Shown piece after piece: positions 3,564-24,981 of a DNA stretch of 64,000 bases. The notes under the pieces are model-generated. The model was not told the origin of the DNA. It did not search any database and saw nothing but the letters and a program-made list of their open reading frames with translations. Position 1 is the stretch's first letter. The number at the start of each line of letters is the position of its first letter. The DNA is from Escherichia phage 212. Both the position numbers and the translations under genes were made by a program. The stretch is from the sequence record PQ765507; one strand, given 5' to 3'.

Positions 3564-4121
3564 ATGAACGAAATTAAATTAACCAAGAATAACTATGTAA
3601 ATAATAAAGAGCTTTTGAAAGCTATTTCGGAGTGGAAACAGAAGCTGAATGCGAACACTGACCCGAACAAAATTATTCGCCAGAACGATGTTATTGGTCT
3701 GGCGATTATGCTTATAGCCGAAGGTCTTAGCAAACGTTTCAACTTCTCCGGATATACCCAATCCTGGAAGCAAGAAATGATAGCGGACGGAATTGAGGCC
3801 GCAATAAAAGGTCTTCACAACTTCGACGAAACAAAATACGATAATCCACATGCTTACATAACAATGGCTTGCTTCAATGCTTTCGTTCAGCGTATCAAAA
3901 AAGAACGTAAAGAAATGGCAAAGAAATATAGCTACTTCGTCCATAACGTATACGATTCACGTGATGACGATATGGTGGCTCTGGCTGATGAAACATTTAT
4001 CCAGGACATCTACGACAAAATGACACAGTACGAATCCTCCTTAGTTAAAGCGCCAGGGTCTGATAAGAGCGCCAAAGATAAAGAGGGTGATTTGGATTTT
4101 TTATATGGAACATCAATTTGA
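3564..4121 (+). CDS. 55: late-transcription sigma factor gp55
   Basis: 185 aa; recalled near-identity to T4 gp55 over [36 protein letters not shown]...[19 protein letters not shown]. Confidence 0.9.
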
Positions 4122-4339
4122 TATTACCGATTTTTTAGATAAAATCGAGGAAGACTTTACAGCTCTCCCATATTTCATTAAACTTTATCTGCGAGACATA
4201 AAAGGTCTTCCAATTGATATCGACCCTTTAAACGTCCGGAATCTGGAATTTACTTCACCGGATAATAACGTTGATTACCGTTATCATGTGGATAATGCTA
4301 ATCTATATTTTACAATTGAGTTAACTCCCAAGGATTAAT

Positions 4340-4651
4340 ATGCAAGCTCCAGATATTTCTCAACTGACCGATAAGCAGATTGAAGAAGCACAGGAACGTC
4401 TCGAAGAAGCGAACGCACTTGAAGCAACCAGCCAAGCAGCGAAGATTCTGAAAAAGAATGCTCGTGAAATTGCACGACTGAATAAGCATGCTCAAGGTGC
4501 AGTGCTGGAAAACAATTTTGAAGCATACAAATACGCTTTAGTTAAACTGCGTGGGATTTACCGCCAACCCGTTACGGAAGACCTGATTAAGTTGATGTGG
4601 GATTCTACTCGCAAACAAATTTGGGAAATCGTAAATGGCATTAGTAAATAA
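4340..4651 (+). CDS. hypothetical protein (predicted helical/coiled-coil)
   Basis: ORF; no motif recognised. Confidence 0.45.
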   Translation: MQAPDISQLTDKQIEEAQERLEEANALEATSQAAKILKKNAREIARLNKHAQGAVLENNFEAYKYALVKLRGIYRQPVTEDLIKLMWDSTRKQIWEIVNGISK

Positions 4652-5130
4652 ACCTTTTAAACGGCTTCTTATTGGAGCCGCTTTCAGACTTCGCTCATAT
4701 GGTGATATCTGTATCAAGCAGTCCGAAACCGAATGTAAGCTCCTTGGCCCTTATGGTGTTCCAAAAGGTATTGTTAAAATTGAGCCGACATCCAAAGTTT
4801 GGGTAGACTCACATCAACTTAAGAAATGGTGGCAACGATGATAACATGGACAGCAGGCTAATGAACGACGAATACGAAAAAGTTTAAGAGGTCATATGAA
4901 TGACGAATTCGACGGATTTTGATAAGATTAAATCTGACAAAAATGAGATGATACTTCAATTTGAAGCCGCTCGTATTAAAGCAGAAAATGAAGGTACTAT
5001 TACCTATAAGCCTATCAAGTTCAGGTCTTCTCATGAACCTCTGTATGGTGTATTAATTGGAAAGGAAGCCTAGTGCTTCCTTTTTTGCTTTATATTCGGG
5101 ATGATAAAATGAACCAACTGAGGAGAACAT

Positions 5131-5274
5131 ATGGAATTATTTTTAGGATATGTCGTGCTATTCATGGCATTCTATACATTCACACGAGCTTGTTGGATAG
5201 GATTCTTTTCCACTCCTGACGGGTTCATTTCAATAATTTTATTTTGCATTGCGATAACGGTGCTTGGCTTATGA
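5131..5274 (+). CDS. small membrane protein (47 aa), not in ORF track
   Basis: Hand-translated MELFLGYVVLFMAFYTFTRACWIGFFSTPDGFISIILFCIAITVLGL; GAGGAG RBS upstream; stop overlaps gene 47 start (ATGA). Confidence 0.4.
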   Translation: MELFLGYVVLFMAFYTFTRACWIGFFSTPDGFISIILFCIAITVLGL

Positions 5275-23043: not shown

Positions 23044-24072
23044 ATGTCATATATTGATAAAGAATTTGCAGTCAGAGCTTTATCGTATCAACCACGTTAT
23101 AGAGAAGTCACCGGGAGCACATTTAAGGCAAACTGCAGATGTAAAGTTTGTGGCGACTCCCAGAAAGATTCACATAAAGCCAGATTCTGGGCGTATACCA
23201 ATCCGTCTGATGGCGCGGTTTACGTGAAATGTTTTAACTGTGACTACTCCACGCATATAAGCAAATACATAAAAGAGTTTGAGCCGGATTTACACCGGGA
23301 ATATATGGTTGAGAAGTATAAGGAGAATGCATTTGGCAGACAGCGCAATGAAGTTGCAGAAGCTCCGAAAGAACCAGAAAAAACTCCGGTTATCGAACAG
23401 CTTGCTTTTTGCGAAAGACTCGATACTTTACCAGAAGCACATCCGATAATTAAGTATGTAAAAAGTCGGTGTATTCCTAACAATGTTTGGAATCGGTTAT
23501 GGTTTACAAACAAATGGCCTGCATTAGTTAACTCCGTCAATCCTGGGACGTATAAGAATGAAACGAATGAACCACGCTTGGTTATTCCTATCTTCAACGG
23601 CAAAAAAGAAATCGAATCTTTCCAAGGACGAGCTCTTCGCAAAGATGCACCACAAAAATATATCACAATCAAAGCTCACCCAGAAGCTTCCAAAGTCTAT
23701 GGAGTAGACAAGATTGATGAGCGTAAACGCGTATGGGTAATGGAAGGTCCAATTGATAGTTTGTTTATCCCTAACAGCATTGCGATAACCGGTGGCACAT
23801 TGGCATTGGAAGCTGTTCCTTATGCTGAAACAAGAGTATGGGTAATGGACAACGAGCCAAGACATCCGGATACGATTAAACGTATGAAGAAGCTCGTTGA
23901 AGCTGGCGAAGCTGTTATGTTCTGGGACAATGCACCATGGCATACGAAAGACATAAATGAGATGGTTAAATCAGAAGGGGCAACCCCTGAACAAATCGAA
24001 TCATATATGGCCGATAACGTTGCTCAAGGATTGATGGCGAGAATGCGACTTTCGAAGTACGCAAAAGTTTAG
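23044..24072 (+). CDS. 61: DNA primase gp61
   Basis: 342 aa; zinc ribbon CRCKVCGDS...CFNCDY; recalled strong match to T4 gp61. Confidence 0.95.
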   Translation: MSYIDKEFAVRALSYQPRYREVTGSTFKANCRCKVCGDSQKDSHKARFWAYTNPSDGAVYVKCFNCDYSTHISKYIKEFEPDLHREYMVEKYKENAFGRQRNEVAEAPKEPEKTPVIEQLAFCERLDTLPEAHPIIKYVKSRCIPNNVWNRLWFTNKWPALVNSVNPGTYKNETNEPRLVIPIFNGKKEIESFQGRALRKDAPQKYITIKAHPEASKVYGVDKIDERKRVWVMEGPIDSLFIPNSIAITGGTLALEAVPYAETRVWVMDNEPRHPDTIKRMKKLVEAGEAVMFWDNAPWHTKDINEMVKSEGATPEQIESYMADNVAQGLMARMRLSKYAKV

Positions 24073-24180
24073 GAAGGGATTCCGGTAAAGTAACCGATGA
24101 TGGAATGAATATGTTCTATTGTGACCTGGGGTAAGTGCACCCCTTGTGTTGCAGCGATAGGCACAACCAGTAAGTTCCAC

Positions 24181-24378
24181 CTATATAAGGCCGATTAATG
24201 CTAGTGAAACATCTACAACTGATTCGAGCGCGACGACTGGCAATATAACACCATGTGCCAATGCAATAGGGGCAACAATGAAATTCCAGAGTAGAACAAA
24301 ACAGAGTATCGAAAGGACCAGAATCGTTCGCTTACGACTGCCTTTGATGGCTTGAATTAGACTAGATAGTTTGAGCAT
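24181..24378 (-). CDS. small membrane protein (65 aa, two predicted TM helices), antisense to the early gene block
   Basis: Reverse-strand ORF with AAGGAGGA RBS about 7 nt upstream of ATG. Confidence 0.45.
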   Translation of the reverse strand: MLKLSSLIQAIKGSRKRTILVLSILCFVLLWNFIVAPIALAHGVILPVVALESVVDVSLALIGLI

Positions 24379-24462
24379 ACATCCTCCTTTCTTGTATTTA
24401 TGCTTTAAACCAATATGATATAATTAACATACAAACAATATGAATTGATAAGGAAAAATATA

Positions 24463-24981
24463 ATGGCTCATTTTAACGAGTGTTCTCAACTGATTGCTGG
24501 TGTTGATAAAGCGCAAGATGCGTATAATGATGTCCTAAAAGGCAATGATGACCCTCTGCAGATTATGCTTGATATGCAGAAATCTTTGCAGGTTCGTCTG
24601 GCTACAGAAAAACCAGAATATAACGCACATCCAGATGAATTGGCAACCGCAGGCGATGTTGTTGCATGGCTTCGTAACCAGAAAGATTATGTCGACGACG
24701 AATTCCGTGAACTTCTGACTTCGCTCGGTGGCATGTCTAATGGTGAGAAAGCCGCATCCAGTTGCTGGAAGCCGTGGAAAGCGCAACATGCTGAATTCCG
24801 TAATCGTCGTATTGATGAATTGTCTCCTGAAGACCAGCTCGAAATTAAATTCGAAATGATTGATATCCTGCACTTTGTTCTGAATATGTTCCATGGTCTT
24901 GGTCTGACAGCAGAAGAAATCTTTAAACTGTATTACCTGAAAAATGCCGAGAACTTTGCTCGCCAAGACCGAGGTTATTAA
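24463..24981 (+). CDS. 56: dCTP pyrophosphatase gp56 (MazG-like)
   Basis: Start MAHFNEC (7th codon of track ORF); recalled match to T4 gp56 incl. EIFKLYYLKNAENFARQDRGY. Confidence 0.85.
   Translation: MAHFNECSQLIAGVDKAQDAYNDVLKGNDDPLQIMLDMQKSLQVRLATEKPEYNAHPDELATAGDVVAWLRNQKDYVDDEFRELLTSLGGMSNGEKAASSCWKPWKAQHAEFRNRRIDELSPEDQLEIKFEMIDILHFVLNMFHGLGLTAEEIFKLYYLKNAENFARQDRGY

What the first reader, a model, noticed from the sequence alone, without database searches (positions are those of the whole stretch)
3564..24981. Cytosine-modification genes missing at their T4 positions while gene 56 dCTPase is retained
Between 55 and 47 (alpha-gt position in T4), between 43/imm and uvsX (42 and beta-gt position), and between 61 and 56 (where I recall dam in T4) there are only small unrelated ORFs. 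Gene 56 is nevertheless present, and Stp (an activator of the host PrrC anticodon nuclease pathway) is present at 44476. This suggests either unmodified cytosine DNA, as described for the RB49 group, or modification genes located elsewhere.
Basis: partly seen in the sequence, partly recalled or inferred. Interest (0 to 1): 0.5.

Follow-up and report, generated by a model that had tools for sequence, protein, structure and literature searches.

The report
T4-like phage predicted to use 5-methylcytosine
This T4-like coliphage (genus Gaprivervirus) really does lack T4's cytosine-hydroxymethylating and glucosylating genes, yet it is probably not unmodified: its only thymidylate-synthase gene, which lies just outside the window, carries the one-residue switch known to turn that enzyme into a dCMP methylase, so its DNA most likely holds 5-methylcytosine in place of cytosine.

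Summary
The window is a Gaprivervirus, 95-97% identical to PSD2001/UPEC01 and 92% to VR7. The 55-47, 43/imm-uvsX and 61-56 junctions are 1122, 1308 and 372 bp and hold only small T4-type ORFs. gp56 (70% identical to T4) and Stp are present.

T4 gp42, alpha-gt, beta-gt and Dam, and the RB69/JS98 5-hydroxycytosine-arabinose cassette, have no homolog in the window. They also have none anywhere in the complete VR7 and PSD2001 genomes, so they are not relocated.

The "unmodified, RB49-like" reading is not supported:
- denB and ndd are intact in the window.
- alc, denA, cd and gene 1 are present in the relatives.
- Published restriction data say VR7 DNA has modified, non-glycosylated cytosines.

Two papers (2021, 2025) already flag this gap as an unsolved puzzle.

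My proposed solution concerns the sole thymidylate-synthase homolog, "td", about 0.85 kb beyond the window's right end. It has Asp at the E. coli ThyA Asn177 position and keeps Leu143 and Asp169, the published signature of a dCMP methyltransferase. The same switch occurs in Acinetobacter phages ZZ1 and 133 and Morganella phage MP1, the other gp42-less, Alc+/DenB+ T4-likes. It is absent from 115 T4-like td clusters, JS98 and RB49.

Predicted pathway: gp56, then Td(Asp), then 5-methyl-dCMP, then gp1, then 5mC DNA. This has not been tested chemically.

The parts
3564..4121 (+). Gene 55 (late sigma factor); left anchor of the alpha-gt junction
   Evidence: Synteny with VR7 and T4
4122..5270 (+). 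55-47 junction. It holds only a-gt.5 (to 4338), a-gt.4 (4340-4651), a-gt.3 (4635-4841) and a-gt.2 (4900-5073). There is no alpha-glucosyltransferase and no mobB.
   Evidence: PHROG/Pfam matches to unknown-function families only; tblastn with T4 a-gt negative; ORF list
5271..6290 (+). Gene 47 (recombination nuclease subunit); right anchor
   Evidence: Synteny
12666..15380 (+). Gene 43 DNA polymerase; left anchor of the 42/beta-gt junction
15450..16346 (+). imm (15450-15692), 42.1-like 47-aa ORF (15689-15832), and an imm.1-like lipoprotein homologous to JS98 orf43 (about 15843-16346)
   Evidence: T4 Imm 52% identical; Pfam Imm_superinfect, phrog_1754; JS98 orf43 52% identical
16347..16688 (+). 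Empty junction before uvsX. At this spot T4 has 42 plus beta-gt, and the sister genus Dhakavirus (JS98) has the five-gene 5-hydroxycytosine-arabinose cassette. Here there are only two tiny membrane-type ORFs.
   Evidence: JS98 map; tblastn with JS98 orf38-42 and F27 cassette proteins negative; sequence
16689..17867 (+). uvsX; right anchor
23044..24072 (+). Gene 61 primase; left anchor of the dam junction
24073..24462 (.). 61-56 junction. It holds only a 65-aa ORF on the minus strand (24181-24378, phrog_2024, unknown function). There is no dam.
24463..24981 (+). Gene 56 dCTPase/dUTPase (all-alpha NTP pyrophosphohydrolase). It removes dCTP and supplies dCMP.
   Evidence: 70% identical to T4 gp56 over 172 aa, E 2e-80; phrog_173, Pfam dUTPase_2
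41437..42030 (+). denB (endonuclease IV, specific for cytosine-containing DNA in T4). Its retention argues against unmodified C.
   Evidence: 95% identical to VR7 DenB over 197 aa
44025..44474 (+). ndd (nucleoid disruption)
   Evidence: 99% identical to VR7 Ndd
   Evidence: Translation

Best explanation
The window comes from a Gaprivervirus. In this genus the T4 hydroxymethylcytosine/glucose genes (42, alpha-gt, beta-gt), dam, and the RB69/JS98-type 5-hydroxycytosine-arabinose cassette are absent from the whole genome, not relocated.

gp56 is kept because the phage still excludes ordinary dC from its DNA. gp56 hydrolyses dCTP/dCDP to dCMP. The phage's only thymidylate-synthase homolog is annotated td. 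It lies next to frd, and by alignment with PSD2001 it starts about 0.85 kb beyond the right end of the window. It has Asp187 at the position of E. coli ThyA Asn177 and keeps Leu143, Asp169, the catalytic Cys and the C-terminal tail. It is therefore predicted to methylate dCMP rather than dUMP, giving 5-methyl-dCMP.

gp1 dNMP kinase and host NDP kinase would then make 5-methyl-dCTP, which gp43 incorporates, so that 5-methylcytosine replaces cytosine. That leaves DenA, DenB and Alc free to attack cytosine-containing host DNA. dTMP/dTTP would come from deamination of 5-methyl-dC nucleotides by the retained Cd deaminase, as in Xanthomonas phage Xp12, and/or from host ThyA and thymidine kinase.

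Shown here: the absences, the retained genes, the Asp switch and its distribution. Inferred: the enzyme's activity, the identity of the base, and the source of dTMP.
For: - Absences. T4 gp42, a-gt, b-gt and Dam, and F27/JS98 cassette proteins, give no tblastn hit in the window, in the complete VR7 genome or in the complete PSD2001 genome. The only TS-family locus in each genome is td (one place per record).
- The switch. In an alignment with E. coli ThyA, VR7, PSD2001, SP18-type and P8-type Td read DVFLGLPF-D-IGSY, whereas JS98 and T4-like td read PF-N-IASY. Among the 120 best homolog clusters, the 4 Gaprivervirus-type clusters have Asp and 115 T4-like clusters have Asn.
- Active-site table. 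At E. coli positions 143, 169 and 177, Gaprivervirus Td has Leu, Asp and Asp. T4 gp42 has Asp, Asp, Asp. The RB69-type 5hoC synthase has Glu, Asn, Asp. RB49 td, an unmodified-C control, has Leu, Asp, Asn.
- Published rules. N177D confers dCMP preference; a bulky residue at 143 gives a methyl product, while Asp or Glu there marks the T4-type hydroxymethylases; D169N marks 5hoC synthases (PMC13326640). N177D gives 5mdCMP, and Asp-type TS is enriched on modified viral contigs (PMC8670742). Five of seven Asp-type viral TS, plus the Xp12 enzyme, made 5mdC in vivo with T4 gp1, and a dCMP-deaminase-family enzyme made dTTP from 5mdCTP (bioRxiv 10.1101/2024.12.05.627091).
- Independent replication. Acinetobacter phages ZZ1 and 133 and Morganella phage MP1 are the other T4-likes reported to lack gp42 while keeping Alc, DenB and dCTPase (PMC8056088). 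Their td also has Asp. I checked the whole ZZ1 genome: one TS locus, Asp-type; no gp42, glucosyltransferase or Dam; gp56, Alc, DenB, Ndd, Cd, gp1 and Frd present. ZZ1 Td is equally distant from VR7 (46%), JS98 (45%) and T4-like (44%) Td, so the switch was not recently transferred from a Gaprivervirus.
- Experiment in the literature. VR7 DNA has modified, non-glycosylated cytosines and was classed apart from hydroxymethylated T4(147). The panel included 5mC-sensitive EcoRII and SalI, and the phage was grown on BL21.
- Fold. The SP18-type Td matches T4 thymidylate synthase 1TIS end to end, E 6e-128. frd and cd are retained next to or near td.
Against: - No chemical identification of the base exists for any Gaprivervirus in the literature I could search.
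- td is outside the window, so for this particular phage the Asp is inferred from relatives at 92-97% nucleotide identity.
- The product call (methyl rather than hydroxymethyl or something else) rests on correlative rules for position 143. Two of seven Asp-type enzymes tested in the bioRxiv study did not yield 5mdC.
- With no second TS, the source of dTMP is assumed.
- The BREX paper's figure was not visible to me, only its legend and conclusion.
- 5mC DNA should be a target of McrBC/McrA, and I did not identify how the phage copes with that.
Confidence: 0.68

Rival explanations
1. The DNA carries a non-canonical cytosine other than plain 5mC. Either the Asp-type Td yields 5-hydroxymethyl-dCMP or another C5 adduct, or 5mC is processed further by unidentified enzymes encoded elsewhere.
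For: Two papers propose an unknown base or enzyme. The methyl-versus-hydroxymethyl rule is correlative. Many Gaprivervirus ORFs have no known function. Loughboroughvirus S144 DNA resists every enzyme tested whose site contains C.
Against: - Leu143 and Asp169 are retained, as in true TS.
- VR7 was classed separately from hydroxymethylated T4(147) in an assay that used T4 beta-glucosyltransferase, and was called unglycosylated.
- No glycosyltransferase, TET-like or methyltransferase candidate turned up among the Gaprivervirus-specific ORFs that I scanned.
Confidence: 0.2
2. Unmodified cytosine DNA, as in RB49-type phages. gp56 would be kept only as a dUTPase, and the missing genes simply lost.
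For: gp42, glucosyltransferases and dam are absent. gp56 homologs also occur in RB49-type phages (Table 4 of PMC12115623).
Against: - DenB and Ndd are intact in the window, and Alc and DenA are intact in the relatives. These would act on the phage's own C-DNA.
- RB49 td keeps Asn177, whereas Gaprivervirus Td has Asp and would be a poor dTMP synthase.
- VR7 DNA was experimentally reported as cytosine-modified.
Confidence: 0.04
3. Post-replicative modification by an unrecognised DNA methyltransferase or other DNA-level enzyme, with Td(Asp) irrelevant.
For: Such systems exist in other phages (methyltransferase plus TET, cited). My domain scans covered only part of the proteome.
Against: - There is no Dam homolog, and none of the ten VR7 candidate ORFs scanned has a methyltransferase domain.
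- A DNA-level route would not explain the retention of the nucleotide-level set gp56, gp1 and Cd.
- It would also not explain the four-fold recurrence of the Asp switch exactly in the gp42-less lineages.
Confidence: 0.05

Closest known systems
Xanthomonas phage Xp12-type complete replacement of C by 5-methylcytosine (TS-homolog dCMP methyltransferase plus 5-methyl-dC nucleotide deaminase)
   Same: A single TS homolog with Asp at the Asn177 position and a hydrophobic residue at 143. A dCMP-deaminase-family gene is retained, and no second TS is present. The predicted pathway runs dCMP to 5mdCMP to 5mdCTP to DNA, with dT made by deamination.
   Different: The genome is a T4-type myovirus of E. 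coli. The enzyme is the ortholog of T4 Td (69% identical, syntenic with frd), changed by a single A-to-G transition, not an Xp12-like gene. It is combined with the T4 host-shutoff set: gp56, DenA, DenB, Alc and Ndd. 5mC has not been demonstrated chemically.
T4 glucosyl-hydroxymethylcytosine system (gp56, gp42, gp1, alpha-gt, beta-gt; Alc, DenA, DenB)
   Same: gp56, gp1, Cd, Frd, Alc, DenA, DenB and Ndd are all conserved, with the same gene order around the empty slots.
   Different: gp42, alpha-gt, beta-gt and Dam are absent genome-wide. Td carries the dCMP-specificity residue that in T4 belongs to gp42 (Asp179).
RB69/JS98 (Mosigvirus, Dhakavirus) arabinosyl-5-hydroxycytosine system
   Same: Dhakavirus is the sister genus. 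Its cassette sits exactly between the imm.1-like ORF and uvsX, the slot that is empty here.
   Different: All five cassette genes are missing. JS98 td keeps Asn177. Position 169 of the Gaprivervirus Td is Asp, not the Asn typical of 5hoC synthases.
RB49-type (Krischvirus) T4-likes with ordinary cytosine
   Same: No gp42 and no glucosyltransferases; a gp56 homolog is present.
   Different: According to PMC12115623, RB49-type phages lack Alc and DenB. RB49 td has Asn177. The window has denB and ndd, and VR7 DNA is reported as modified.

Membership tests
T4-type hmC/glucosyl-hmC system | gp42 dCMP hydroxymethylase (TS homolog with Asp177 and Asp/Glu143) | tested here: not met
   tblastn with T4 gp42 finds nothing in the window or in the whole VR7 and PSD2001 genomes. 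The sole TS homolog has Leu143.
T4-type hmC/glucosyl-hmC system | alpha- and/or beta-glucosyltransferase | tested here: not met
   No tblastn hit in the window, VR7 or PSD2001. VR7 DNA is reported as unglycosylated.
T4-type hmC/glucosyl-hmC system | gp56 dCTPase, plus nucleases and Alc that discriminate against C-DNA | tested here: met
   gp56, denB and ndd are in the window. alc, denA and gene 1 are in VR7 and PSD2001.
RB69/JS98 arabinosyl-5-hydroxycytosine system | 5hodCMP synthase (TS homolog with D169N, L143E, N177D) plus an arabinose-nucleotide and transferase cassette upstream of uvsX | tested here: not met
   F27 and JS98 cassette proteins give no hit. The slot 16347-16688 is empty.
RB49-type unmodified-cytosine T4-likes | Absence of alc and denB; canonical td (Asn177) | tested here: not met
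   denB is in the window. alc is in the relatives. Td has Asp, whereas RB49 td has Asn.
Xp12-type 5-methylcytosine phages | TS homolog with Asp at the Asn177 position and a bulky hydrophobic residue at 143 (dCMP methyltransferase signature) | tested here: met
   Met in VR7, PSD2001, SP18-type and P8-type Td. The gene lies outside the window, so for this phage it is inferred from relatives.
Xp12-type 5-methylcytosine phages | dCMP-deaminase-family enzyme able to make dT nucleotides from 5-methyl-dC nucleotides | tested here: inconclusive
   cd is present in VR7 and PSD2001. Its substrate range is unknown.
Xp12-type 5-methylcytosine phages | 5-methyl-dC replacing dC in virion DNA | not testable with these tools
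   Only indirect evidence: the published conclusion from a restriction-enzyme panel that VR7 cytosines are modified.

The most novel reading that the evidence does not exclude
A whole genus of T4-type coliphages has converted its only thymidylate synthase into a dCMP methylase by a single Asn-to-Asp change. Acinetobacter phages ZZ1 and 133, Morganella phage MP1 and the Rosemount/Loughborough-type Salmonella phages have independently done the same. On this reading all cytosine is 5-methylcytosine and thymidylate is made by deaminating 5-methyl-dC nucleotides. A small protein family of unknown function (VR7ORF147c, with a domain paralog in the window at 46437-46664) travels with this trait and may be an accessory adapted to 5mC DNA.
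Probability: 0.55. Interest if true: 0.7.

Novelty: new variant of a known kind. Interest (0 to 1): 0.6.

Why it matters
[quoted passage not shown] A specific prediction (5mC made by Td Asp187) can be settled with one LC-MS run.
- **Evolution of base replacement.** If the prediction holds, the T4 replacement machinery can swap its chemistry through a single transition in a housekeeping gene, repeatedly and independently.
- **Annotation.** It would show that the label "thymidylate synthase" hides dCMP methylases in well-studied phage groups.
- **Defence sensitivity.** It would predict how these phages respond to host defences: sensitive to BREX, as observed for VR7, and probably to methyl-dependent type IV enzymes.
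- **Practical use.** It would offer an easily grown coliphage source of fully 5mC-substituted DNA.

Tried and rejected
- **Relocated T4 genes.** I searched for T4 gp42, alpha-gt, beta-gt and Dam in the window and in the whole VR7 and PSD2001 genomes. There were none.
- **Divergent RB69-type enzyme and cassette.** The F27 and JS98 proteins hit only td, weakly.
- **Subtractive comparison of VR7 with JS98,** looking for a Gaprivervirus-specific enzyme. It left only small ORFs, homing endonucleases, internal head proteins, ORF135c, ORF147c, ORF148c and ORF149c. Pfam gave nothing useful apart from a T5orf172 domain in ORF148c and DUF7275/7277 in ORF136c.
- **VR7ORF147c as a deaminase.** The original record describes it as deaminase-like. 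It has no HxE or PCxxC motifs and no Pfam match, so I rejected it as an enzyme. Its striking co-distribution with Asp-type TS is recorded as unexplained.
- **BP63 first 11 kb.** This stretch holds no TS. The TS was found later, next to an NTP pyrophosphohydrolase.
- **Literature.** Searches on Gaprivervirus, VR7, Straboviridae plus 5-methylcytosine, and dCMP methyltransferase found no paper identifying the base or noting the Td switch in these phages.
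Full report
**What the window is.** The region 3564-24981 is 95-97% identical at the nucleotide level to Escherichia phages PSD2001, UPEC01 and TH44, and 91.7% identical to vB_EcoM_VR7, all of genus Gaprivervirus, Tevenvirinae (taxonomy). Synteny with the annotated VR7 and T4 records gives the map:
- 55 (3564-4121), a-gt.5/.4/.3/.2, 47, 46, 45, 44, 62, regA
- a homing endonuclease (11783-12580)
- 43 (12666-15380), imm, a 42.1-like ORF, an imm.1-like ORF, uvsX (16689-17867), 40, 41
- small ORFs including dmd and sp, then 61 (23044-24072) and 56 (24463-24981)
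- then soc, modB/A, srd, dda, dexA, motB, 39, rIIA, rIIB, denB, ndd, stp, 52, motA, the tail-fibre genes, rnh, 59 and 32.

**Check of the observation.** At those places T4 holds a-gt plus mobB, then imm.1 plus 42 plus b-gt plus segA, then dam. The ORFs in the junctions match only a-gt.5, a-gt.4, a-gt.3, Imm, an imm.1-like family (phrog_1754) and a 65-aa ORF of unknown function. tblastn with T4 gp42, a-gt, b-gt and Dam gives nothing in the 64-kb window even at E<=10, while gp56 is 70% identical to T4 over its full length. Stp is present at 44476-44556.

**Are the genes elsewhere?** The window covers only part of the genome, so I fetched the complete genomes of VR7 and of the closest relative, PSD2001. 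Neither holds a homolog of T4 gp42, a-gt, b-gt or Dam.

T4-like phages of the RB69 type carry a very divergent gp42 homolog (25% identical). It is now known to be a 5-hydroxy-dCMP synthase inside an arabinosylation cassette (PMC13326640). JS98, of the sister genus Dhakavirus, carries that five-gene cassette exactly between its imm.1-like orf43 and uvsX. In the window, VR7 and PSD2001 the orf43 homolog is followed directly by uvsX. None of the cassette proteins has a homolog anywhere in these genomes, and the RB69-type synthase hits only td, weakly. So the known cytosine-modification genes are absent, not relocated.

**This gap is already in the literature.** PMC8056088 (2021) lists Gaprivervirus, Acinetobacter phages ZZ1 and 133 and Morganella phage MP1 as Tevenvirinae-type phages that lack any known enzyme for non-canonical bases. 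It notes that Gaprivervirus keeps DenA, DenB, Alc and the dCTPase, and proposes an unknown protein. PMC12115623 (2025) repeats this and says such phages could not replicate without a non-canonical base. The BREX study PMC6326788 reports from a restriction-enzyme panel that VR7 DNA has modified but non-glycosylated cytosines. It classed VR7 apart from the hydroxymethylated T4(147) control in an assay that used T4 beta-glucosyltransferase, and the phage was grown on BL21.

The window itself holds intact denB and ndd, and the relatives hold alc, denA, cd, gene 1 and frd. The RB49-like, unmodified reading is therefore not supported.

**Search for the missing enzyme.**
- A subtractive comparison of VR7 and the window against JS98 left no plausible enzyme. 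It left only small ORFs, homing endonucleases, internal head proteins and a few 140-216-aa ORFs without informative domains.
- The decisive clue came from aligning the only TS-family protein of VR7, annotated td, with E. coli ThyA, JS98 td, T4 gp42 and the RB69-type synthase. At the position of E. coli Asn177, VR7 has Asp (DVFLGLPF-D-IGSY), like T4 gp42 (Asp179). JS98 td and E. coli have Asn.
- Among the 120 best homolog clusters from a 5.8-billion-protein search, the four Gaprivervirus-type clusters (85-98% identical; the SP18-type cluster stands for 73 sequences) have Asp. All 115 motif-matching T4-like td clusters (64-69% identical) have Asn.
- PSD2001 Td also has Asp187, and the change is a single AAT-to-GAT/GAC transition.
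- Each Gaprivervirus record has exactly one TS locus.
- The protein is a full-length ortholog of T4 thymidylate synthase (PDB 1TIS, E 6e-128) and sits next to frd as in T4.

**What the switch means.** According to the literature read here:
- Asn177-to-Asp switches TS from dUMP to dCMP.
- A bulky hydrophobic residue at position 143 gives a methyl product, whereas Asp or Glu there marks the T4-type hydroxymethylases.
- Asp169-to-Asn marks 5-hydroxy-dCMP synthases (PMC13326640, citing Hardy and Nalivaika 1992 and Liu and Santi 1992).
- N177D yields 5mdCMP, and Asp-type TS is enriched on cytosine-modified viral contigs (PMC8670742).
- Five of seven Asp-type viral TS, plus the Xp12 enzyme, produced 5mdC in vivo together with T4 gp1. 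A dCMP-deaminase-family enzyme from such a phage made dTTP from 5mdCTP, which removes the need for a second TS (bioRxiv 10.1101/2024.12.05.627091).

My residue table, for E. coli positions 143, 169 and 177:

| Protein | 143 | 169 | 177 |
|---|---|---|---|
| Gaprivervirus Td | Leu | Asp | Asp |
| T4 gp42 | Asp | Asp | Asp |
| RB69-type 5hoC synthase | Glu | Asn | Asp |
| E. coli ThyA, JS98 td, T4-like td, RB49 td | Leu | Asp | Asn |

All the other catalytic residues examined, including Cys146, and the C-terminal tail are kept. The prediction is a dCMP methyltransferase.

**Independent replication.** The td genes of ZZ1, phage 133 and MP1 also have Asp at this position together with Leu143 and Asp169. 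These are exactly the other gp42-less, Alc+/DenB+ lineages named in PMC8056088.
- I fetched the whole ZZ1 genome. It has one TS locus, Asp-type. It has no gp42, glucosyltransferase or Dam, and gp56, Alc, DenB, Ndd, Cd, gp1 and Frd are all present.
- ZZ1 Td is about equally distant from VR7, JS98 and T4-like Td (46, 45 and 44%), so the switch arose separately or long ago and is not a recent transfer.
- RB49 lacks gp42 but has ordinary cytosine and, per PMC12115623, no Alc or DenB. It keeps Asn. That is the expected negative control.

**Mechanism proposed.**
1. gp56 turns dCTP/dCDP into dCMP.
2. Td(Asp187) methylates dCMP with methylene-tetrahydrofolate, and Frd recycles the dihydrofolate.
3. 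gp1 and host NDP kinase give 5-methyl-dCTP.
4. gp43 builds 5mC DNA.
5. DenA, DenB and Alc act on C-containing host DNA.
6. Cd and/or host ThyA and Tk supply thymidylate.

Steps 1 and 5 follow from established T4 biology and the homologies shown here. Step 2 is predicted from the residues. Steps 3, 4 and 6 are inferred by analogy with Xp12 and the cited experiments. I put about 0.68 on this explanation. The main rival (about 0.2) is that the final base is not plain 5mC.

**Limits.** By alignment with PSD2001, td starts about 850 bp beyond the right end of the window. For this isolate the Asp is therefore inferred from every relative examined. No chemical analysis of the base is available. I saw the legend and conclusion of the BREX restriction figure, not the gel. 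The library searches found no paper that identifies the base or notes the Td switch in these phages, but the library is not complete.

**Side finding.** VR7ORF147c is a 141-aa protein with no Pfam match and no deaminase motifs. It has homologs only in Gapriverviruses, ZZ1, 133, MP1, two Erwinia phages and the roughly 52-kb Rosemount/Loughborough-type phages.
- The Rosemountvirus BP63 TS is also Leu/Asp/Asp-type. It sits next to an NTP pyrophosphohydrolase, and the genome has a dCMP deaminase.
- DNA of the Loughboroughvirus S144 is cut only by enzymes with AT-only sites and was reported as "modified on the cytosine" with no known gene responsible (PMC7432712).
- A paralog of the ORF147c C-terminal domain lies in the window at 46437-46664.
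- The family thus tracks the Asp-type TS trait. Its function is unknown.

**Verdict.** The second (genes elsewhere) holds only in the sense that a repurposed td, just outside the window, most likely provides a different modification, 5-methylcytosine. I rate this a new variant of a known kind (T4-type cytosine replacement with Xp12-type chemistry), of moderate to good interest because it turns an explicitly stated open question into a one-experiment test.

Noticed in passing
window 46437-46664 (+); VR7 65139-65561 (L005 25137-25562, minus strand): A 75-aa ORF upstream of motA is a paralog of the C-terminal domain of VR7ORF147c (39% over 59 aa, E 8e-9). The full-length 141-aa family has no Pfam match. 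It occurs only in phages whose sole TS is Asp177-type among those I examined (Gaprivervirus, ZZ1, 133, MP1, Rosemountvirus BP63), and also in Loughboroughvirus and two Erwinia phages, whose TS I did not check. It may be an accessory linked to 5mC DNA. In ZZ1 the gene is on the opposite strand to its neighbours.
   Followed up: partly
window 11783-12580 (+): A 265-aa homing endonuclease (mobB-like N-terminus, I-TevI-type DNA-binding domain) is inserted between regA and gene 43. VR7 has a 71-aa ORF there and PSD2001 has nothing.
   Followed up: partly
L021 25934-27411 and 31848-32333 (Salmonella phage BP63, Rosemountvirus): A TS homolog with Leu143/Asp169/Asp177 sits next to an NTP pyrophosphohydrolase, and the genome also has a dCMP deaminase and a thymidylate-kinase-like gene. 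This predicts 5mC in Rosemountviruses. DNA of the related Loughboroughvirus S144 was reported as cytosine-modified with no known gene responsible (PMC7432712); I did not check the S144 TS itself.
   Followed up: partly
window 20945-21286 (+): A 113-aa ORF immediately after dmd (20732-20944) has a weak Dmd-like stretch (phrog_2102 E 3.5e-6; Pfam Dmd below its cut-off). It may be a diverged dmd duplicate, and it has no JS98 homolog.
   Followed up: no
window 16346-16609 (+): Two tiny hydrophobic ORFs (35 and 42 aa) fill the slot between the imm.1-like gene and uvsX, where Dhakavirus carries its 4.2-kb arabinosylation cassette. No remnant of the cassette is detectable.
   Followed up: partly
window 49645-50187 (-): gp38 here is the T4/VR7 type (92% identical to VR7) and has no JS98 homolog. 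JS98 has a T6-like adhesin at this position, so the receptor-recognition module differs between the sister genera.
   Followed up: no
L013 26647-27579 and L014 25517-26464 (ZZ1 and Acj133 td): Besides Asp177, these two Td proteins have Met at the Gln165 position, as do T4 gp42 and the RB69-type 5hoC synthase. They also carry 20-30-residue insertions. This is a second gp42-like active-site change not seen in Gaprivervirus Td.
   Followed up: no
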